The notes beneath the pieces were generated by a model. That model was given only the letters and a program-made list of their open reading frames with translations. It made no database searches and was not told the origin of the DNA. A DNA stretch of 64,000 bases from Candidatus Levybacteria bacterium RIFCSPHIGHO2_01_FULL_36_15b (GTDB lineage: Bacteria > Patescibacteriota > Microgenomatia > Levybacterales > UBA12049): the NCBI GenBank assembly GCA_001782045.1, contig MFNK01000003.1, positions 26,070-90,069 of the forward strand, given 5' to 3'. Positions 2,899 through 28,072 of the stretch are shown here, piece after piece; position 1 is the first letter of the stretch; each line of letters opens with the position of its first letter. A program made the translations under genes and the position numbers.

Positions 2899-4752
2899 TT
2901 AATTAAGATTTATCCATGCTGGCACATGTCCTTCAGCGTCTCTTACTATTGCAACAAAAGCTTTCTCGGCGGCATCTAGCTTTCTGTTTACTACCTTTAC
3001 ATATTCAGCAAAATCCGAATCAGCAATTCTTGCTGCATGTCTTTCTACTTTTTCCCAAGTTTTTGTTTCATCTTCTGTCCATTTTTCTCTTAGACTTGGG
3101 ACAAGTGCTTCTTCCCGCATTTTTTTTATTCCTACTGCGAATAAGCTTTTTAAATCTTTCACCTGATAAGGTCTGTATTGTTTTTTTCCATGTCTAAGAG
3201 TTCTTACTCTTGATTCGGTCCTTAGAGGTCTTTGAAGCAAAGCAAAATCTATCTTTTCACTTTTTAAAAGCTGATCAATTACGCATCGAATGACTTTTGT
3301 CTCTTCTTCGCTTCTTATTTCGTCTTCGGATGGAACATATGGAGTTTCTCGCAAGGGTACTCTTGCGGCATCTGCTGTTCTTGTAGATCTTTTCAAAGTT
3401 TCTTCATTAGCGCTTTGCAATGTTTCTCCAACTTCAGTTCTTTCTAAAGTTCTAAATTCGTAGGAAGCAGGAATTGCATTTTTCATGTGAGACTCTTTAA
3501 GAGAAACAGTATTTATTAACTGAGCTCCTTGTTCAGACAGTTGTTTATTTATAGAAAATAGTATAGGAGCTATCCTGTTAATAGCTACTTTAATTTCAAT
3601 ACCTGGGTAGGTGAGTTCAGCTAGCTCTGGTTTTGTTTTGAATCCCTCGAGCATATAGCCAAGTACTTCTATGTTTTTTCCACCTGAAATTTTTATTTGT
3701 CTCCCTAGAATTGTAAAGTCTTTTGTTTCTTTAGGTTTAAGTTCTCTTTTTAGGTGTTTTTCGATAGTTTTGGTTTTAGATTTTTTTTCAGCTAATATTG
3801 CCTCGTCCAGTCTTTCAGGTGGAACTTGTTTTATTGTTATTCCGCTTTTTTTTTCTTGCGAGGCAATTGATTTCAAAACGTATGCTCCGTCTCCACGTTT
3901 GCCTTTGTTAAGGTTAATTATATGCAGTTTTTCAGGTTCTAAAATTTCATTAATTTCTGAAATTGCCGCTTGAACATTTTTTGCTCCAGAATATTCTCTT
4001 AGCTCTTTTCCAGAAGCTTCTCCTTGGCTGAGCTTTTCAAGAATTTTAAATCTTATTTTCGTAAATTTGATTTCTTTACCTGTAAAAAGAATATAAGTTT
4101 CGGTCGGTCTTTTATCTTGTTTTATTGATTCAACTGGTTTTTTTGGATTGATTTTATATACAGATTCTCCTTCTATTACAATTCGACTTATTTCATGTTG
4201 GTTTTCTTTGGCTAATTGTCTGGCTCTTGAAAGCACATGTTTTGTAAACCCATCTCGATTTTCTGGGGTATCTTCACCGAAAGCCCCTTTAGTTAAATAA
4301 GAAATAGTTCTTCTTCTTTTTATCAATTGCTCAATCACTTTAGCGTGTTTGCTTTTGTTAACAGTAGCTTCCATACCGTTTCGAAAATGGAGTGTTAGTT
4401 TTTCTCTATGTTTTTCCGGTTTTGCGGGTGTTTGTTCTTTGACTACTTCATGAAGCTCCGGAACAGATACTTCTATTTGCTGTTGGGTAGGAAGTGGTCC
4501 GGAAATCAACTCTTCGAAATTTATTAGCGAAAGCGTTTGGGTTGCGATTTCTTCAATTCTTCCATTATCCAGTGCAATTTTTGCGTCGTTTCCAATTATT
4601 TTGTTTGCTAAATTAAGTTTTTCAACGCTGGAAGTAGCTTGATGAGCTTTTTCAACCAAAACACTTCTAACTCTTGTTCTTACTTCGACAAAGCTACCAA
4701 GTCTTTTGATGTTTCTTTCCGATTCTTGTATCTGTTGTTTTCTTTCAATCAT
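2899..4752 (-). CDS. hypothetical 617-aa K/E/R-rich protein, partner of the GHKL ATPase
   Basis: Long uninterrupted ORF, first gene of a 2-gene minus-strand operon. No Walker, HExxH, PD-(D/E)xK or other motif recognised by eye. Confidence 0.5.
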   Translation of the reverse strand: MIERKQQIQESERNIKRLGSFVEVRTRVRSVLVEKAHQATSSVEKLNLANKIIGNDAKIALDNGRIEEIATQTLSLINFEELISGPLPTQQQIEVSVPELHEVVKEQTPAKPEKHREKLTLHFRNGMEATVNKSKHAKVIEQLIKRRRTISYLTKGAFGEDTPENRDGFTKHVLSRARQLAKENQHEISRIVIEGESVYKINPKKPVESIKQDKRPTETYILFTGKEIKFTKIRFKILEKLSQGEASGKELREYSGAKNVQAAISEINEILEPEKLHIINLNKGKRGDGAYVLKSIASQEKKSGITIKQVPPERLDEAILAEKKSKTKTIEKHLKRELKPKETKDFTILGRQIKISGGKNIEVLGYMLEGFKTKPELAELTYPGIEIKVAINRIAPILFSINKQLSEQGAQLINTVSLKESHMKNAIPASYEFRTLERTEVGETLQSANEETLKRSTRTADAARVPLRETPYVPSEDEIRSEEETKVIRCVIDQLLKSEKIDFALLQRPLRTESRVRTLRHGKKQYRPYQVKDLKSLFAVGIKKMREEALVPSLREKWTEDETKTWEKVERHAARIADSDFAEYVKVVNRKLDAAEKAFVAIVRDAEGHVPAWINLN

Positions 4753-22873: not shown

Positions 22874-23269
22874 TTAAGGAAGTTTAGTTCTTAATAATTG
22901 CTGTAATCGTTTTTGTTGATAGAGCTTATGCGCTTCTGCTCTAATTAGTTTTGTGATTGGTTCTCCTTGCCTTACAGGGTGATTTTTACGTAAATTCATA
23001 TCGTCCATATGATATTTTTTAACTACTAGGTCAAACATTTCGCGACCTTTTCCTAGCTCTATATCCCGAACTCCAAGAAAAAAGTCCAAGAAATAATCCC
23101 GTTTTGTATTAAAAAGATTCAGAAGGCTATCGTTTTGTGCAAAAGTTGTTCTTACGGCCTTTTTAATTTCCTCAAAGTCAACACCTTCCGGAGTAAGTCT
23201 TTCTTTCGGCAAGCGTTGTCCCGGTAATCTATGAATATGTGGAAATCTTTCCTTTTCTGACATAACCAT
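22874..23269 (-). CDS. hypothetical protein
   Basis: ORF only. Confidence 0.35.
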   Translation of the reverse strand: MVMSEKERFPHIHRLPGQRLPKERLTPEGVDFEEIKKAVRTTFAQNDSLLNLFNTKRDYFLDFFLGVRDIELGKGREMFDLVVKKYHMDDMNLRKNHPVRQGEPITKLIRAEAHKLYQQKRLQQLLRTKLP

Positions 23270-23374: not shown

Positions 23375-23959
23375 ATGCAACCAAAAGATTTTGAGGAAAT
23401 TATTATATTTGAAGACACAGCTTCGGGAGTAAAAAGCCCTCTTCCTTCCATAGAGGATTCCAAGCAGGAATTAAAAGAGAGCATAAAAGAAGAAATAGAA
23501 GACGAGGCAGCTAAAAGAGAGGAAAAAAGCAAGCAAAAAATGGACGAGTTAATTAAAAGTTCACAAAAACCTTTGTACAAACTTTCAACAATTTTTCCCC
23601 TAGATCTTTTTCCCGACAAGCTGATTATAGAATTTGACCATGTTAACATTTATTTTCATGAATTTTTTTCAACCGGCCAGGTAAGAAGCGTTCCAATACA
23701 AAATATTGGAGAAGTAATAATTGAAACTTCTCCTCTTTTTACAACGCTTAAGATAATTGAGGGAATGATTGGTGCAGGAGTTGAATTAGATTTAAAGCCT
23801 GTTAGGAGAAGCGAAGCAATAAAAGCAAAAAGAATTATAATGGGACTTATGATTGCAGATAAAGAAAAAGTAGACTTGTCCGATCTTGATTCTGCAGACG
23901 TAGCAAGAAAAGTAGAAGAATTAGGAAAAGCACAAGAACCTGAATTCATGTCAAATTAG
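23375..23959 (+). CDS. hypothetical protein with acidic N-terminal region
   Basis: ORF only. Confidence 0.35.
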   Translation: MQPKDFEEIIIFEDTASGVKSPLPSIEDSKQELKESIKEEIEDEAAKREEKSKQKMDELIKSSQKPLYKLSTIFPLDLFPDKLIIEFDHVNIYFHEFFSTGQVRSVPIQNIGEVIIETSPLFTTLKIIEGMIGAGVELDLKPVRRSEAIKAKRIIMGLMIADKEKVDLSDLDSADVARKVEELGKAQEPEFMSN

Positions 23960-25053: not shown

Positions 25054-25383
25054 TTACTTTAATTTTTTTATTTGCTCTCTTTCTTTAGAATAATCAAAAG
25101 CGTTTTTAAGAAACGGTATAATTCTTTGGATATCGTCCTCTCCTGTTATTTCTATCTCCGCCCATGTTTTTCCAAAGTCAAATTTTATAAATCCTTCATC
25201 CAGTGAATTTTTAAACTCATCAGGGGAGAGTATTAACCATAAAAGCAGAATATTATTGTCTACAACTTTATATCCCGCAAAAAGATTTTTTCCCGTATAA
25301 ACACAAATCCAGCCAAAAGAATTGGAAAATCTAATTTGTCCCAAAGTCTCAATTTGCTCAACTAATAAATCTTTTAATTCCAC
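25054..25383 (-). CDS. TfoX N-terminal-domain-like protein
   Basis: IRFSNSFGWICVYTGKNLFAGYKV resembles the TfoX_N pattern R.MFGG.G.Y..G..FA (from memory). Confidence 0.4.
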   Translation of the reverse strand: MELKDLLVEQIETLGQIRFSNSFGWICVYTGKNLFAGYKVVDNNILLLWLILSPDEFKNSLDEGFIKFDFGKTWAEIEITGEDDIQRIIPFLKNAFDYSKEREQIKKLK

Positions 25384-25465: not shown

Positions 25466-25482
25466 TTGACACCGCGGGAAAA
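25466..25482 (+). promoter_or_regulatory. 17-bp motif TTGACACCGCGGGAAAA (copy 1; -35-like hexamer plus CCGCGG palindrome)
   Basis: Identical 17-mer also at 25967-25983. Here it is followed by TAATAAT and sits 20 nt before the ATG at 25502. Confidence 0.4.
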
Positions 25483-25501: not shown

Positions 25502-25945
25502 ATGTACGAAGTTTTATTAGATAAAGGTCAAGACGCATCAGATTTCGATGAATGGCATATTCCCAGGGAAGCAATAGATATATTAAAAACGGCAGTAGGT
25601 AAAGAAGTTAGGGTAGGAACGGAAACGGATGCCTATATGGATTTTGGAATAGCAGACACAGCAACATGGTATAGAACCAGAGAGGGGACTTTAGTTGATG
25701 TCAGGCCTAATGAAATTGTAATTGCCGAATTTCGAGGAAAAGGTAAAAAAAGAGTAGAAGTAGTCTTGCCTGCGGGAGCAACATCCTTTAACGAGGGCAA
25801 AGCCGATGAAAAAAGGATGGGTATTGAAAAAATGAGAAATGTATTTGGAATTATGGAAGATAACATAAAAACAATTTCTTTTTCCAAAGGAAAAGACAAA
25901 TTTGAATTACTCCATTTTAGTCAACCAAAAGAACCTCAACCTTAA
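25502..25945 (+). CDS. hypothetical protein (147 aa)
   Basis: ORF only; preceded by the repeated 17-bp motif. Confidence 0.4.
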   Translation: MYEVLLDKGQDASDFDEWHIPREAIDILKTAVGKEVRVGTETDAYMDFGIADTATWYRTREGTLVDVRPNEIVIAEFRGKGKKRVEVVLPAGATSFNEGKADEKRMGIEKMRNVFGIMEDNIKTISFSKGKDKFELLHFSQPKEPQP

Positions 25946-25966
25946 AATCTCCAAGCTTGACACCGC

Positions 25967-25983
25967 GGGAAAAGGGGAGGGCC
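25967..25983 (+). promoter_or_regulatory. 17-bp motif TTGACACCGCGGGAAAA (copy 2)
   Basis: Exact repeat of 25466-25482, 80 nt upstream of the ATG at 26064. A second TTGACA...TGATACAAA promoter-like element lies between it and the ATG. Confidence 0.4.
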
Positions 25984-26063
25984 CTAACTTTGCCTCATGT
26001 GTCTTTTGAAAGATTAACTTGACAAGTAAGTTAAGTTTGTGATACAAATATCTTGCTTGACTT

Positions 26064-26633
26064 ATGAATAACGAAAAAAGGGCACGAGTAAAGATATCAA
26101 TAAACGAAGGCCTAATAGAGCTTGAGGGGTCAGAGGAGTTTGTTGAAAAATATCTAATAGAGTTTAAAAATAAGTTAAGTTTTCCTTCGCATATGCCTAC
26201 TCTCAATAATCACCAACCCTCCGCACAGGTAGTACAACAAAAAAAAGATTCAGCTAATAAAGTCTCAGCTGTTAGACCAGCTAAATCAAAAGGCAAAAAT
26301 ATTGAGCCCGAAGAGTTTGAAATAAATAATAATAGCGATGATTCTTTAGCTAAATTTATGGAAAGTAAAAATCCAGGAGAAAATGCATGGAATAGAATAG
26401 TTGTTGTAGGTTATTACATAACACATAAATTGCAAAAAGCTAATTTCACTGAAGGAAATGTTGAATTTGCTTACAAGGCGCTAAGCTTAAATAAGCGGCC
26501 TCTCCATTTAAGGCAGGCATTTATTGATATGAAAAACAAGAAAAAATGGTTAGAGGAGTTGTCGGATGGAGGATGGACTCTTTCTAGGCTCGGAGAAATT
26601 TATGTTGAAGATCAAATGCTCCCTAAGTCTTAA
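26064..26633 (+). CDS. hypothetical protein (189 aa)
   Basis: ORF only; 2-nt gap to the next gene, so same operon. Confidence 0.4.
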   Translation: MNNEKRARVKISINEGLIELEGSEEFVEKYLIEFKNKLSFPSHMPTLNNHQPSAQVVQQKKDSANKVSAVRPAKSKGKNIEPEEFEINNNSDDSLAKFMESKNPGENAWNRIVVVGYYITHKLQKANFTEGNVEFAYKALSLNKRPLHLRQAFIDMKNKKKWLEELSDGGWTLSRLGEIYVEDQMLPKS

Positions 26634-26635
26634 TC

Positions 26636-27400
26636 ATGCAGCTAGATTTTAATTATCTTCTAGAAAAGAAACCAGATTTTTATGAACTTACGCAACGAGA
26701 GCAAATAAAATATCTTTGTTTTGTCTACTCCAAGAACAATAACCAACCTATTTTTGCACAAAAAGATATTAAGGATTTGTTTGAAGAGTTTAATCTTGTA
26801 GTACCATCTCATTTATCACAGGAATTCAGCAACTTAACCAAAGGAAAGGTTCCTGCTTTAGTCAAAAAAATAGGCGGATATGCAATTCATCCCAGCGTGG
26901 ATCGTTCCTTAACACTTGAATTATTCTCTAATACCAGTCCAGATGGAAACGAAAAAAAATCGCAAAACACGTCACTTTTTAGTAAATACGATTTTCATCC
27001 AGAAATAAAACGGGTGGCGTTTAGAGAGTTTCAAGATGGATATTATAAAACAGCGATACAAAACGCCTTAGTTGAGGTAATTGATCAGGTAAAAAATAGA
27101 ACCGATAACCCCACAGTAGAAAATAATGGTAGAAAGAAGGATTTAGATGGAGATGATTTGATGAATCGTGTATTTGGTTGTGATGGGGAGAATATTCCAA
27201 TGATTAGGTTTAATAGCTTAAGCAATGGTCTTGATAAAGCTGAACAGAGGGGTATAATGAATTTATTCAAAGGCATTGTTGGAGTAAGAGATAGAAAAGC
27301 ACATCTAAATTTTATTCAAAACGATCCCTTAAAAACAATTGAATATTTATCTCTTTCAAGTCTACTTATGAGACTTTTGGATGAAAATCCTCCTAGTTAA
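26636..27400 (+). CDS. Hypoth_Ymh/TIGR02391-like (HEPN-like, Rx4H) C-terminal domain protein with a novel N-terminal region
   Basis: FHPEIKRVAFREFQDGYYKTAIQNALVEV... then DKAEQRGIMNLFKGIVGVRDRKAHL: an Rx4H motif in the family-typical E-x-(E/Q)-x-G...LF-x-G...R-x-x-x-AH context (from memory). Confidence 0.45.
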   Translation: MQLDFNYLLEKKPDFYELTQREQIKYLCFVYSKNNNQPIFAQKDIKDLFEEFNLVVPSHLSQEFSNLTKGKVPALVKKIGGYAIHPSVDRSLTLELFSNTSPDGNEKKSQNTSLFSKYDFHPEIKRVAFREFQDGYYKTAIQNALVEVIDQVKNRTDNPTVENNGRKKDLDGDDLMNRVFGCDGENIPMIRFNSLSNGLDKAEQRGIMNLFKGIVGVRDRKAHLNFIQNDPLKTIEYLSLSSLLMRLLDENPPS

Positions 27401-27406
27401 ATTAAG

Positions 27407-27424
27407 TCTGCTATAATTAGCCTC
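27407..27424 (+). repeat. 18-bp direct repeat TCTGCTATAATTAGCCTC (left copy)
   Basis: Perfect copy at 28055-28072; contains an extended -10 (TGCTATAAT). Confidence 0.6.
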
Positions 27425-27482
27425 GTTTTTCCAATAGGCCTGTAGTTGCTAGTTTAATCTAATTTTGTTAAAATCTACCTCT

Positions 27483-28046
27483 ATGATTCCAGAAATTACT
27501 CCACATGGCAACCTCGATCTGCCGCACGAAGGTGGTGGTTTTGATCTGTTGGCGGAAGCCATGCGTTTAGACACCTCTGTTAGAGCTAGCATCGGATTAA
27601 ATAAGATGCAAGGGAATGAAAAGCTAAAAGAAAGACTCACGCGAGAGGTCTCAATAGGATTAGTTCTCGGGAGTAGGGAGCTTGGAATACCGATTCCATC
27701 TCTTAGTACTGAAAGGCAATTGGAAGATGGGAGACCTATTGCATACTCTGATTGGAGTGAGGAAAAAGGAGGAGAAATAATATTTATCAGGGGCTTTCTA
27801 ATGCGATTTGTAGTCAGAATGTATCGCGACCGGCCTTTTTATTTTGTAGTACCTCATGAGATGCTTCACATAAGACAATTAATGGATCACTATACAACGG
27901 TTAGAGCAGATCTTAAAGCCAAGGACTGGAAAAGAACGCTAACTGAAAGAGCTGCTGATGCTTTTGGCGATTCAGTTCTTCTTCGTTATGGTTCAGAAAT
28001 TCAATTAGCGCTCCAAGGCCTTCCGCCCGGCAATAGGGCTCGTTAA
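27483..28046 (+). CDS. HExxH-motif protein (putative ImmA/DUF955- or SprT-like zinc peptidase) in a GC-rich cassette
   Basis: VVPHEMLHIRQ motif. Local GC about 50-55% versus roughly 33-36% in flanking genes. Start set to ATG 27483; the track starts at a TTG. Confidence 0.45.
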   Translation: MIPEITPHGNLDLPHEGGGFDLLAEAMRLDTSVRASIGLNKMQGNEKLKERLTREVSIGLVLGSRELGIPIPSLSTERQLEDGRPIAYSDWSEEKGGEIIFIRGFLMRFVVRMYRDRPFYFVVPHEMLHIRQLMDHYTTVRADLKAKDWKRTLTERAADAFGDSVLLRYGSEIQLALQGLPPGNRAR

Positions 28047-28054
28047 ATATACTT

Positions 28055-28072
28055 CTGCTATAATTAGCCTCA
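28055..28072 (+). repeat. 18-bp direct repeat TCTGCTATAATTAGCCTC (right copy); doubles as the ychF promoter -10
   Basis: Ends 1 nt before the ychF ATG at 28074. Confidence 0.6.

What the first reader, a model, noticed from the sequence alone, without database searches (positions are those of the whole stretch)
26064..27400. Hypoth_Ymh/TIGR02391-like (HEPN-like, Rx4H) protein with a novel N-terminal domain, coupled to a 189-aa unknown
The C-terminal half of the 254-aa protein reads ...FHPEIKRVAFREFQDGYYKTAIQNALVEV...DKAEQRGIMNLFKGIVGVRDRKAHL. As I recall it, this matches the hallmark of the Hypoth_Ymh/TIGR02391 family (E-x-E/Q-x-G...LF-x-G...R-x-P/R-x-AH). That family is linked to Abi-like and HEPN-type (Rx4-6H) RNase toxin contexts. 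The N-terminal roughly 110 aa and the upstream 2-nt-coupled 189-aa gene match nothing I know. Inference: a possible abortive-infection or toxin-antidote pair with a new partner domain.
Basis: partly seen in the sequence, partly recalled or inferred. Interest (0 to 1): 0.6.

Follow-up and report, generated by a model that had tools for sequence, protein, structure and literature searches.

The report
Two-gene HEPN RNase module, new partner
A Candidatus Levybacteria genome carries a tightly coupled gene pair, a predicted RNA-cutting toxin of the known Ymh/HEPN family plus an undescribed small partner, that belongs to a wider uncharacterised family of mobile two-gene cassettes whose toxin domain is swapped between lineages, as in anti-phage defence or toxin-antitoxin systems.

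Summary
ORFs 26064-26633 (189 aa, "A") and 26636-27400 (254 aa, "B") lie 2 nt apart. B residues 119-248 match Pfam PF09509 Hypoth_Ymh (E 2e-19) and TIGR02391, both above the curated cut-offs, with an invariant Rx4H motif (R218-H223). B is identical to a deposited Levybacteria protein already named "TIGR02391 family", so the HEPN call is not new.

What is new is the setting. B's N-terminal 100 aa is a confidently modelled winged-helix-like domain with no family model. It is rare (62 clusters among 1.84 billion proteins) and always N-terminal. It is fused to three different HEPN-type domains and, rarely, to PNP, TIR or PLD-like domains. A consists of a conserved beta-hairpin plus helix, a disordered basic linker and a second winged-helix-like domain that is distantly related to B's. 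A has at least 170 relatives in bacteria and archaea. In 14 of 15 complete short-A loci outside Bathyarchaeia, a gene with B's N-terminal domain follows directly, while the flanking genes differ everywhere.

My best reading is a mobile, toxin-antitoxin-like or abortive-infection module in which paired winged-helix domains couple a regulator to a swappable effector. Activity, toxicity and trigger are untested. I rate it a new variant of a known kind, of moderate interest.

The parts
25946..26063 (+). Intergenic region upstream of A. It holds two -35-like TTGACA hexamers (25957, 26019) and a further TTGAC at 26056. It may be the promoter or operator region of the A-B operon, but this is not established.
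   Evidence: Sequence read. The consensus scan found no full sigma-70 match here. The 25957 copy belongs to an exact 17-nt direct repeat.
26064..26633 (+). Gene A (189 aa), the uncharacterised partner protein.
   Evidence: ORF. There is no Pfam, NCBIfam, PADLOC or PHROGs family. It has 12 close relatives and at least 170 by profile search. The AlphaFold model has mean pLDDT 81.5.
26064..26183 (+). A residues 1-40: a conserved beta-hairpin (6-13, 16-23) plus helix (24-38), consensus KAKINLxEGxIELEGSExFVxKYLDEFK.
   Evidence: Model. A 36-position HMM finds it in 29 partner proteins of bacteria and archaea at E 1e-13 to 5e-22, with one weaker case at 3e-7. In locus L142 it occurs on separate small proteins.
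26184..26333 (+). A residues 41-90: a predicted disordered, basic (pI 9.35), poorly conserved linker.
   Evidence: pLDDT is 46-51 over residues 41-70. The alignment is variable here.
26334..26630 (+). A residues 91-189: the C-terminal winged-helix-like domain (H108-122, H130-139, H149-160, wing strands 163-165 and 171-173, H175-184). Conserved residues: R145 and P146 in the loop just before the third helix, H148 beside it, and Q151, N155, K157 and N158 on that helix.
   Evidence: pLDDT is 90-97. The Foldseek top hits are almost all winged-helix DNA-binding or dimerisation domains, but none is significant (best E 0.25). HMM hits at E 1e-24 to 1e-48 occur across loci, including the Bacteroidota 'long A' forms.
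26631..26638 (+). Gene junction: TAA stop of A, a 2-nt spacer, then the ATG of B. This is tight coupling; relatives overlap by 4 to 35 nt.
26636..27400 (+). Gene B (254 aa): an N-terminal winged-helix-like domain plus a Ymh-family HEPN domain.
   Evidence: ORF. It is 100% identical to 'TIGR02391 family protein [Candidatus Levybacteria bacterium RIFCSPLOWO2_01_FULL_36_13]'. The AlphaFold model has mean pLDDT 90.4.
26636..26935 (+). B residues 1-100: the N-terminal winged-helix-like adaptor domain (H20-35, short strand, H42-51, H60-67, wing 75-78 and 81-84, H86-97).
   Evidence: Model. It has no family model and no PDB sequence relative. Exhaustive HMMER finds 62 cluster representatives among 1.84e9 proteins, always N-terminal and fused to various effectors. 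It is distantly related to A's C-terminal domain (weak by hhalign).
26990..27397 (+). B residues 119-254: the Hypoth_Ymh / TIGR02391 HEPN-family domain, the predicted RNase effector.
   Evidence: PF09509 E 2.2e-19. TIGR02391 scores above its cut-off. PADLOC Aga_HEPN E 5.6e-7 and PD-Lambda-3_B E 2e-5. The domain is about 65-75% identical to those of hundreds of 'short-form' Ymh proteins.
27287..27304 (+). Codons for R218-D-R-K-A-H223, the Rx4H catalytic-type motif of HEPN domains.
   Evidence: Sequence. R218, K221, A222 and H223 are invariant in 32 relatives. The motif sits at the junction of helices 198-219 and 221-227.

Best explanation
A and B form an autonomous, horizontally mobile two-gene conflict module of the toxin-antitoxin / abortive-infection kind. 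B is the effector. Its C-terminal Ymh-family HEPN domain, with an intact Rx4H motif, is predicted to cleave RNA and stop growth once it is allowed to form an active dimer or oligomer. B's N-terminal winged-helix-like domain is not the catalytic part. I read it as a coupling domain that matches B to its partner. A is the regulator. Its C-terminal winged-helix-like domain is a distant paralogue of B's N-terminal domain and most likely contacts it, like-with-like, in the way proposed for effector-associated adaptor domains. Its conserved hairpin-helix motif probably drives self-association. Its basic disordered linker and the conserved basic or polar residues on the third helix of its winged helix suggest nucleic-acid binding, either to its own operator or to an invader's nucleic acid. 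I commit to this reading: in the resting cell A, made first and translationally coupled, holds B in an inactive state. Loss, displacement or re-organisation of A on infection or another stress frees B. Shown here: the domain composition, the motif conservation, the conserved adjacency and coupling, the swapping of effectors behind the same two modules, and the variable genomic context. Inferred: RNase activity, toxicity, the A-B contact, the sign of regulation (inhibitor versus activating scaffold) and the trigger.
For: Effector identity: PF09509 and TIGR02391 score above their curated cut-offs, and Rx4H is invariant. Ymh is a HEPN family tied to R-M and Abi contexts (PMC3710099). The domain also matches HEPN components of PADLOC defence models.

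The pair is a unit. An A homologue lies directly upstream of full-length B relatives in L001/L002 and L003/L004. L005/L006 carries a gene of the same size and position that the A profiles do not detect. The flanks are unrelated in each case (ftsZ cluster, methylase+GmrSD, tRNA synthetase). Of 15 complete short-A loci from reference genomes outside Bathyarchaeia/Thermoproteota, 14 have a gene with B's N-terminal domain starting between -35 and +7 nt of A's stop.

Effectors are swapped. Behind the same N-terminal domain sit Ymh, DUF4145 (RELGNLSAH), an RNxxAHP class that weakly matches PD-T7-3, and single cases of PNP (matching PADLOC PDC-M60C and a CBASS-type effector), TIR and a PLD-like domain. 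The PNP-fused member is preceded by a long A form.

The two domains are related. An N-terminal-domain HMM that contains no A sequences hits A C-terminal domains at E 2e-8 to 1e-4. Both models have winged-helix topology.

TA-like features: regulator-first gene order, 2-nt gap or 4-nt overlaps, small proteins, a disordered segment in A, and relatives embedded among HipA, ParE/Phd, MazE/PIN and Fic genes.
Against: No experiment bears on this pair or on any close relative. In the window the pair sits among housekeeping genes (alpha/beta hydrolase upstream; YchF, amidase and S6-SSB-S18 downstream), not in a recognisable defence island, and its G+C content matches the flanks. Neither protein family was found on viral contigs or in phage records, and plasmids hold only distant Ymh domains, so mobility is inferred from context variation alone. 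The HEPN fold was not confirmed by structure search. The homology between A's C-terminal domain and B's N-terminal domain is weak (hhalign E 0.008, probability 5%). Seven of 11 'long A' genes and all the Bathyarchaeia A-like genes lack a detectable effector carrying the N-terminal domain next to them. A-like proteins can therefore work without such an effector, which fits a scaffold or DNA-binding role at least as well as an antitoxin role. One full-length B relative (L005/L006) has an upstream gene not detectably related to A.
Confidence: 0.4

Rival explanations
1. The components are the same but the regulation has the opposite sign. A is a sensor or scaffold that activates B. On binding an invader's nucleic acid or protein, A oligomerises through its hairpin motif and recruits B through the paired winged-helix domains. 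This brings the HEPN domains together to form the composite active site. It follows the logic of effector-associated domains and of RAZR-type assembly-driven activation.
For: The same kind of domain appears in adjacent genes, with one copy fused to swappable effectors. That is exactly the pattern for which homotypic coupling was proposed (PMC7159879). The long A forms add two zinc ribbons and another winged-helix-like domain, which looks sensor-like. A-like genes exist without an effector carrying B's N-terminal domain next to them. The HEPN RNase RAZR is activated by assembly on phage proteins (PMC13017515). TIR and PNP effectors are typical of sensor-effector defence systems.
Against: There is no NTPase or other recognised sensor core, unlike described EAD systems. 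The regulator-first order with translational coupling and the location in TA islands fit an antitoxin equally well. Nothing here distinguishes the sign of regulation.
Confidence: 0.3
2. It is a plain chromosomal type II-like toxin-antitoxin addiction module with no role in defence. A is a DNA-binding, protease-labile antitoxin that represses its own operon, and B is a HEPN toxin.
For: Gene order, coupling, sizes, the disordered region and the winged-helix domain in A all fit. Relatives lie beside HipA, ParE/Phd and MazE/PIN pairs. The window's own context is housekeeping genes.
Against: TIR, PNP and PLD-like effectors behind the same N-terminal domain, and matches of those effectors to defence-system models, point towards immunity. 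One relative lies next to a methylase plus GmrSD and another near Abi_2. The conserved N-terminal domain on the toxin polypeptide is unusual for classical type II pairs. TA and Abi roles are not mutually exclusive.
Confidence: 0.2
3. It is a housekeeping or regulatory pair, not a conflict system: two winged-helix transcription or RNA-binding factors, one of which carries a HEPN-like domain used for nucleotide or RNA binding or for RNA processing.
For: Both accessory domains are winged-helix-like. The window neighbourhood is housekeeping. Some HEPN families are non-catalytic binders (PMC3710099).
Against: The distribution is patchy across phyla and domains, with unrelated flanking genes everywhere. 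The catalytic-type Rx4H motif is strictly conserved. The HEPN domain is replaced by other HEPN families and by TIR, PNP or PLD-like domains. A conserved housekeeping function would not tolerate that.
Confidence: 0.07

Closest known systems
Hypoth_Ymh / TIGR02391 (PF09509) family of HEPN domains (Anantharaman et al. 2013, PMC3710099)
   Same: B's C-terminal 130 residues match the family profile end to end, above the curated cut-offs, and keep the Rx4-6H motif. Public databases already name the protein a TIGR02391 family protein.
   Different: The described architectures are solo domains or fusions to paraMORC, AbiJ-NTD1/2 or AbiTii, typically in R-M operons. Here the fusion partner is an undescribed winged-helix-like domain, the operon partner is an undescribed 189-aa protein, and there is no R-M gene next to the window's pair.
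Single-gene DUF4145/HEPN defence proteins: RAZR (PD-T7-4), BxaP, Ishtar
   Same: Each has a small accessory domain plus a HEPN RNase that acts by abortive infection or plasmid loss. RAZR's R and H are required for defence (PMC13017515; PMC10799925; bioRxiv 10.64898/2026.07.06.735840). The sister branch of this module uses a DUF4145 domain, and its long A forms carry zinc ribbons as RAZR does.
   Different: Those systems are monogenic and have other accessory domains (zinc finger, HEAT-like, beta-rich C-terminal domain). The window's effector is Ymh, not DUF4145. Here the accessory functions are split over two genes. PADLOC models of those systems do not match A or the DUF4145-class relatives.
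PD-lambda-3 (Vassallo et al. 2022; PADLOC PD-Lambda-3_B) and the Argonaute-associated HEPN (PADLOC Aga_HEPN)
   Same: B's HEPN domain matches the C-terminal part of PD-Lambda-3_B (E 2e-5) and Aga_HEPN (E 5.6e-7). PD-lambda-3 acts by abortive infection (PMC13190303).
   Different: Only the HEPN portion matches (profile positions 182-262 of 270 and 246-371 of 382). A matches no PADLOC model. No Argonaute gene and no PD-(D/E)XK nuclease partner were found next to the pair.
Effector-associated domains (EADs) of NTP-dependent conflict systems (Kaur et al. 2020, PMC7159879)
   Same: A small non-enzymatic domain is present twice, in adjacent genes, with one copy fused to interchangeable effector domains. 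This predicts like-with-like coupling.
   Different: There is no vWA-MoxR, GTPase or STAND core. The domain is winged-helix-like and is not one of the described EADs. The system has two genes only. Homology between the two copies is weak.
HEPN toxin-antitoxin pairs (HepT/MntA)
   Same: A two-gene module with a HEPN RNase toxin regulated by the product of the adjacent gene (PMC13000451 abstract).
   Different: The partner is not a minimal nucleotidyltransferase. A has no MNT or other enzymatic domain, so neutralisation by AMPylation is not expected.

Membership tests
Hypoth_Ymh / TIGR02391 (PF09509) | Profile score above the curated threshold over the whole domain | tested here: met
   PF09509: 69.9 bits against a gathering score of 25, profile positions 2-119 of 119. 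TIGR02391: 42.0 bits against 39.45.
Hypoth_Ymh / TIGR02391 (PF09509) | Conserved Rx4-6H motif near the C-terminus | tested here: met
   R218-DRKA-H223. R218 and H223 are invariant in 32 relatives.
Hypoth_Ymh / TIGR02391 (PF09509) | Typical context: R-M operon, or fusion to paraMORC, AbiJ-NTD or AbiTii (PMC3710099) | tested here: not met
   No such domain is present in B or its neighbours. Only one relative (L003) lies beside a methylase plus GmrSD. This is a typical context, not a requirement for membership.
HEPN superfamily | All-alpha four-helix-bundle core with the Rx4-6H motif at the start of the last core helix | tested here: inconclusive
HEPN superfamily | Metal-independent RNase activity that depends on the R and H residues and on dimerisation | not testable with these tools
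   Needs biochemistry.
Type II-like toxin-antitoxin module | Two small, co-directional, tightly coupled genes conserved as a pair | tested here: met
   2-nt gap here, and overlaps of 4 to 35 nt in relatives. The pair is conserved in varied contexts.
Type II-like toxin-antitoxin module | The toxin arrests growth, and the antitoxin neutralises it by direct binding and autoregulates the operon | not testable with these tools
   The only indirect hints are the winged-helix fold and disordered linker in A.
PD-lambda-3 (PADLOC) | Both system proteins match their models over most of their length | tested here: not met
   B matches only profile positions 182-262 of 270 of PD-Lambda-3_B at E 2e-5. A matches nothing.
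Short pAgo-associated HEPN (PADLOC Aga_HEPN) | Association with an Argonaute gene | tested here: not met
   No neighbour carries an Argonaute domain. The match is confined to the HEPN part.
AbiJ-like (AbiJ-NTD + HEPN) | An N-terminal AbiJ-NTD1-5 domain and an AbiJ-type HEPN domain | tested here: not met
   B has no AbiJ_NTD or AbiJ Pfam hit. One distant protein carrying B's N-terminal domain (P0267) has an AbiJ_NTD5 insert.
EAD-coupled conflict systems (PMC7159879) | The same adaptor domain duplicated in adjacent genes, one copy fused to variable effectors | tested here: met
   A's C-terminal domain and B's N-terminal domain both have winged-helix topology. The N-terminal-domain HMM hits A C-terminal domains at E 2e-8 to 1e-4. 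The effector variety is shown. The homology is weak.
EAD-coupled conflict systems (PMC7159879) | A core NTPase (vWA-MoxR, GTPase or STAND) component | tested here: not met
   No such gene is conserved with the pair. The YchF GTPase downstream in the window is housekeeping and is absent from the other loci.

The most novel reading that the evidence does not exclude
A's C-terminal domain and B's N-terminal domain are a new class of like-with-like coupling adaptor, analogous to effector-associated or Death-like domains but built on a winged helix. They would define an undescribed, NTPase-independent two-gene immune system found from Gammaproteobacteria and Bacteroidota to CPR bacteria and DPANN archaea. 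In this reading a small nucleic-acid-sensing scaffold (A) recruits and switches interchangeable effectors: three HEPN families, PNP, TIR and PLD-like.
Probability: 0.3. Interest if true: 0.7.

Novelty: new variant of a known kind. Interest (0 to 1): 0.55.

Why it matters
HEPN RNases are among the commonest effectors of prokaryotic immunity and toxin-antitoxin systems. How each one is kept silent and then switched on is known for only a few. This pair offers a compact, two-gene example with a regulator and a coupling domain that no curated protein-family or defence-system library I searched contains. The same chassis carries at least three HEPN families and, rarely, PNP, TIR and PLD-like effectors, so working out the A-B switch once would probably explain the whole family. 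It also occurs in Candidate Phyla Radiation bacteria and DPANN archaea. These are tiny-genome symbionts for which few defence systems have been described (my own knowledge, not tested here). The Ymh family itself has no solved structure and no biochemical study that I could find.

Tried and rejected

2. Profile searches of A, B and B's N-terminal domain against PDB sequences found no relatives.

3. A direct BLASTP of A against B gave no significant similarity. hhalign of B's N-terminal domain against A's C-terminal domain gave only E 0.008 and probability 5%. The relationship rests on the broader HMM.

4. I tried to show that the pair is an insertion by finding an empty site. Contigs with an identical YchF all come from the same strain and have the same arrangement. 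The 80 metagenomic YchF relatives are at most 63% identical and share no neighbouring genes. This was uninformative.

5. Carriage by viruses or plasmids: A and B's subfamily are absent from IMG/VR, INPHARED and PLSDB, apart from distant Ymh domains.

6. I tested whether the partners of the 'short-form' Ymh proteins (L007-L009) are A homologues. The A HMMs do not detect them. jackhmmer links L008A residues 60-149 to A's C-terminal domain only through a 14-bit seed, which I treat as suggestive.

7. I considered whether A evolves faster than B, as antitoxins often do. The identities are mixed (B 81% with A 67% or 50%, but B about 55% with A 67%), judging from contig-length coincidences. I make no claim.

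8. The consensus scan gave no convincing sigma-70 promoter directly upstream of A and no terminator directly after B.

9. I rejected membership of PD-lambda-3, pAgo-HEPN, AbiJ and HepT/MntA (see the membership table).
Full report
**Observation**

A's TAA stop, two bases, and B's ATG follow each other directly. B residues 119-248 match Pfam PF09509 Hypoth_Ymh over the entire profile (E 2.2e-19, 69.9 bits, gathering score 25). They also match NCBIfam TIGR02391 above its cut-off (42.0 against 39.45 bits). The motif RDRKAH (R218-H223, nt 27287-27304) is an Rx4H motif, and R218 and H223 are invariant in an alignment of 32 relatives. Anantharaman et al. 2013 list Ymh (PF09509) as a HEPN family with the Rx4-6H motif conserved. 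They describe it as solo or fused to paraMORC, AbiJ-NTD1/2 or AbiTii, and often found in R-M operons (PMC3710099). B is, however, 100% identical to a deposited protein already named [quoted passage not shown]. That also identifies the window as a Candidate Phyla Radiation genome.

**Anatomy of B**

AlphaFold2 with a 32-sequence alignment gives a confident model (mean pLDDT 90.4).
- **Residues ~5-97:** helix, short strand, helix, helix, two-stranded wing, helix. This is winged-helix topology.
- **Residues 98-118:** a less confident linker.
- **Residues 119-250:** an all-alpha domain with a beta-hairpin insert (160-169). The Rx4H motif sits at the junction of helices 198-219 and 221-227.

**Anatomy of A**

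A has no hit in Pfam, NCBIfam, PADLOC or PHROGs. The model (65-sequence alignment, mean pLDDT 81.5) shows three parts.
- **Residues 1-38:** a beta-hairpin (6-23) plus a helix (24-38).
- **Residues ~40-90:** a disordered, basic linker (pI 9.35).
- **Residues 95-184:** a well-modelled C-terminal domain (pLDDT 90-97), again with winged-helix topology.

Foldseek hits for A are individually non-significant (best E 0.25). They are nevertheless almost uniformly winged-helix domains: IdeR/MntR, Fur/Zur, PadR, MarR, IclR, Csa3 and the N-terminal domains of O-methyltransferases. The third helix of this domain and the loop before it carry the most conserved polar and basic residues (R145, P146, H148, Q151, N155, K157, N158).

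**The pair is a conserved unit in changing surroundings**

About 15 proteins match B over its full length. For the relatives on long contigs:
- **L001/L002:** an A homologue lies directly upstream, next to ftsA-ftsZ.
- **L003/L004:** an A homologue lies directly upstream, next to an EcoRI-type methylase and GmrSD. The A C-terminal-domain HMM gives E 9e-6.
- **L005/L006:** a gene of the same size occupies that position, next to a tRNA synthetase fragment, but it is not detectably A-like.

Matching contig lengths suggest four more A/B pairs. A profile search showed that the A family is much larger than the first search suggested. It has at least 170 clusters of ~190-aa proteins, including cultured Aliidiomarina, Cellvibrio, Pseudomaricurvus, Parvibium and Pontiella.

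A scan of one genome per species returned 44 loci from Gammaproteobacteria, Bacteroidota, Zixibacteria, Patescibacteria-like MAGs, Woese- and Pacearchaeota, and Bathyarchaeia/Thermoproteota. Of the 15 loci outside Bathyarchaeia/Thermoproteota with a complete short A (hairpin motif plus C-terminal domain), 14 have a ~243-260-aa gene that starts between -35 and +7 nt of A's stop and opens with B's N-terminal domain. Flanking genes differ in every case. Two Gammaproteobacterial examples lie among HipA, ParE/Phd, MazE/PIN and Fic genes.

**The effector is swapped**

In those downstream proteins the C-terminal domain takes three forms.
- **Ymh:** the window, L013 and the Pacearchaeota locus L034.
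- **DUF4145:** motif RELGNLSAH, 24-30 bits against a gathering score of 23.1.
- **A third Rx4H class:** motif RNT[CA]AH. It has no Pfam family but weakly matches the HEPN system PD-T7-3.

An HMM of B's N-terminal domain built only from Ymh-type proteins finds the RNTxAH class at E 1e-14 to 1e-20. It finds the DUF4145 class at E 3e-5 to 3e-3, always at the N-terminus.

An exhaustive HMMER search of 1.84 billion cluster representatives found this domain in only 62, always N-terminal. Among those proteins:
- the RNxxAHP class is the largest group (about 20);
- DUF4145 follows (7 Pfam matches);
- Ymh has 3;
- single proteins carry PNP_UDP_1 (57 bits, also matching PADLOC PDC-M60C and a CBASS-type effector model), TIR_2 (38 bits), a sub-threshold PLD-like domain, and AbiJ_NTD5.

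The PNP-fused protein is preceded, 2 nt upstream, by a 380-aa "long A". This form has a double zinc ribbon, a middle winged-helix-like region, a basic linker and A's C-terminal domain (E 5.5e-35). Two further upstream genes carry A's hairpin motif on their own, and an Abi_2 gene lies nearby.

Profile-profile comparison of the three HEPN-type domains is weak (E 0.002-0.15), but it puts the R...H motifs in register.

**The two winged-helix domains look like paralogues**

BLASTP and hhalign (E 0.008, probability 5%) do not establish this. A broader N-terminal-domain HMM that contains no A sequence does hit A C-terminal domains at E 2e-8 to 1e-4 in a search of the census loci. The pattern is one domain type in two adjacent genes, with one copy fused to interchangeable effectors. 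Kaur et al. described the same pattern for effector-associated domains and interpreted it as like-with-like coupling (PMC7159879).

**Interpretation**

Five features are the standard signature of a conflict system (toxin-antitoxin, abortive infection or defence) rather than of a housekeeping function:
- a conserved, coupled pair;
- unrelated flanking genes;
- patchy spread across bacteria and archaea;
- strict conservation of the catalytic-type motif;
- replacement of the effector by other HEPN families and by TIR, PNP and PLD-like domains.

I therefore read B as a HEPN RNase effector. Its N-terminal winged helix docks it to A, and A acts as the regulator. I favour A as an antitoxin-like inhibitor. 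It comes first in the operon and is translationally coupled. It has a disordered segment and a probable DNA-binding domain, and relatives sit in TA islands. The opposite sign, with A as a sensing scaffold that assembles and activates B as phage proteins do for RAZR (PMC13017515), is not excluded. Two observations favour it: the zinc-ribbon-bearing long A forms, and the A-like genes that lack an adjacent effector carrying B's N-terminal domain (7 of 11 long A genes and all Bathyarchaeia loci). RNase activity, toxicity, the A-B contact and the trigger are all inferred. The confidence of 0.4 applies to the committed inhibitor version. The broader statement, a conflict module with a HEPN effector regulated by A in either direction, I would put near 0.7-0.9 once the first two rivals are counted.

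**Points against a strong claim**

- In the window the pair lies between an alpha/beta hydrolase and the YchF-amidase-S6-SSB-S18 cluster, not in a defence island.
- Its G+C content is the same as the flanks.
- Neither family was found in IMG/VR or INPHARED, or on plasmids, apart from distant Ymh domains.
- An empty-site comparison could not be made.

**Comparison with known systems**

By the curated thresholds B is a member of Hypoth_Ymh/TIGR02391. The pair is not PD-lambda-3, a pAgo-associated HEPN, AbiJ or HepT/MntA. In each of those cases only the HEPN part matches, or a defining partner is missing. The validated DUF4145 defence proteins RAZR, BxaP and Ishtar are single-gene systems with other accessory domains. 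The full-text searches I ran for the family identifiers and for DUF4145/HEPN defence terms turned up no paper describing A, B's N-terminal domain or their pairing. This is absence within the library searched, not proof.

**Verdict**

The HEPN/Ymh identification is already in public annotation. The partner, the coupling domain and the effector-swapping family around them appear undescribed. I rate it a new variant of a known kind (a HEPN-based two-gene conflict module), with interest 0.55.

Noticed in passing
window 25466-25482 and 25957-25973: An exact 17-nt direct repeat, TTGACACCGCGGGAAAA, which contains a -35-like TTGACA. It brackets the unannotated 147-aa ORF at 25502..25945. There are only these two exact copies in 64 kb (0.08 expected with up to 3 mismatches). 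The first copy forms an 11/12 sigma-70-like promoter with AATAAT.
   Followed up: partly
window 27407-27424 and 28054-28071: An exact 18-nt direct repeat, TCTGCTATAATTAGCCTC, which contains an extended -10 (TGnTATAAT). It brackets the 193-aa ORF at 27465..28046. The first copy starts 7 nt after B's stop codon, and the second ends 3 nt before the ychF ATG (28074), which would make ychF nearly leaderless. Together with the 17-nt repeat, this suggests serial insertion of small cassettes into one promoter region. No empty site could be found for comparison.
   Followed up: partly
window 27465-28046 (+), motif at 27855-27869: The 193-aa ORF directly downstream of B has no family hit, but it contains an HExxH motif (HEMLH), so it may be a small metallopeptidase. 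It is not conserved next to A-B pairs in other loci.
   Followed up: no
loci L007, L008, L009 (relatives of B): Hundreds of 'short-form' Ymh proteins (~225-235 aa) have a HEPN domain about 65-75% identical to B's across distant phyla. They carry a different N-terminal winged-helix-like domain (LLKxLWEEGFF...). Each has its own overlapping, unannotated upstream gene of 245-279 aa. L008's partner residues 60-149 resemble A's C-terminal domain only weakly (a 14-bit jackhmmer seed).
   Followed up: partly
loci L040-L051 (Bathyarchaeia/Thermoproteota) and L026 (Woesearchaeota): Archaeal A-like genes keep the hairpin motif (E 1e-14 to 1e-21) and a divergent C-terminal domain. The gene that follows them is 255-268 aa, has no Rx4-6H motif and no Pfam hit, and its C-terminus looks like yet another winged helix. 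This is a different, unexplained variant.
   Followed up: partly
loci L055 (Halomonas halocynthiae) and L056 (Gilvimarinus sp.), 3251-4516: The gene order is reversed. A 243-aa protein with B's N-terminal domain (E 1e-20) lies upstream of a 170-174-aa protein that has A's hairpin motif but no detectable A C-terminal domain.
   Followed up: no
locus L142, 734-4164; Bacteroidota loci L022, L025, L028-L033, L035, L036: The 'long A' forms (367-404 aa) have a double zinc ribbon, a middle winged-helix-like region, a basic linker and A's C-terminal domain, and they lack the hairpin motif. In L142 the hairpin motif sits on two separate upstream proteins, and the effector is a PNP domain that matches PADLOC PDC-M60C. 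Seven of the 11 long A genes have no adjacent gene with B's N-terminal domain.
   Followed up: partly
window 25054-25383 (-), 25502-25945 (+), 22874-23269 (-), 23375-23959 (+): Several small ORFs around the pair have no hit in any of the four libraries (the last two were scanned against Pfam only). The ~3-kb stretch between the hydrolase gene and ychF consists entirely of such genes plus A-B.
   Followed up: no
window 26019-26038 and 26163-26182: The sequence TTGACAAGTAAGTTAAGTTT upstream of A recurs at 85% identity inside A's coding region (…ATAAGTTAAGTTT). This could be an operator-like repeat or simply chance.
   Followed up: no
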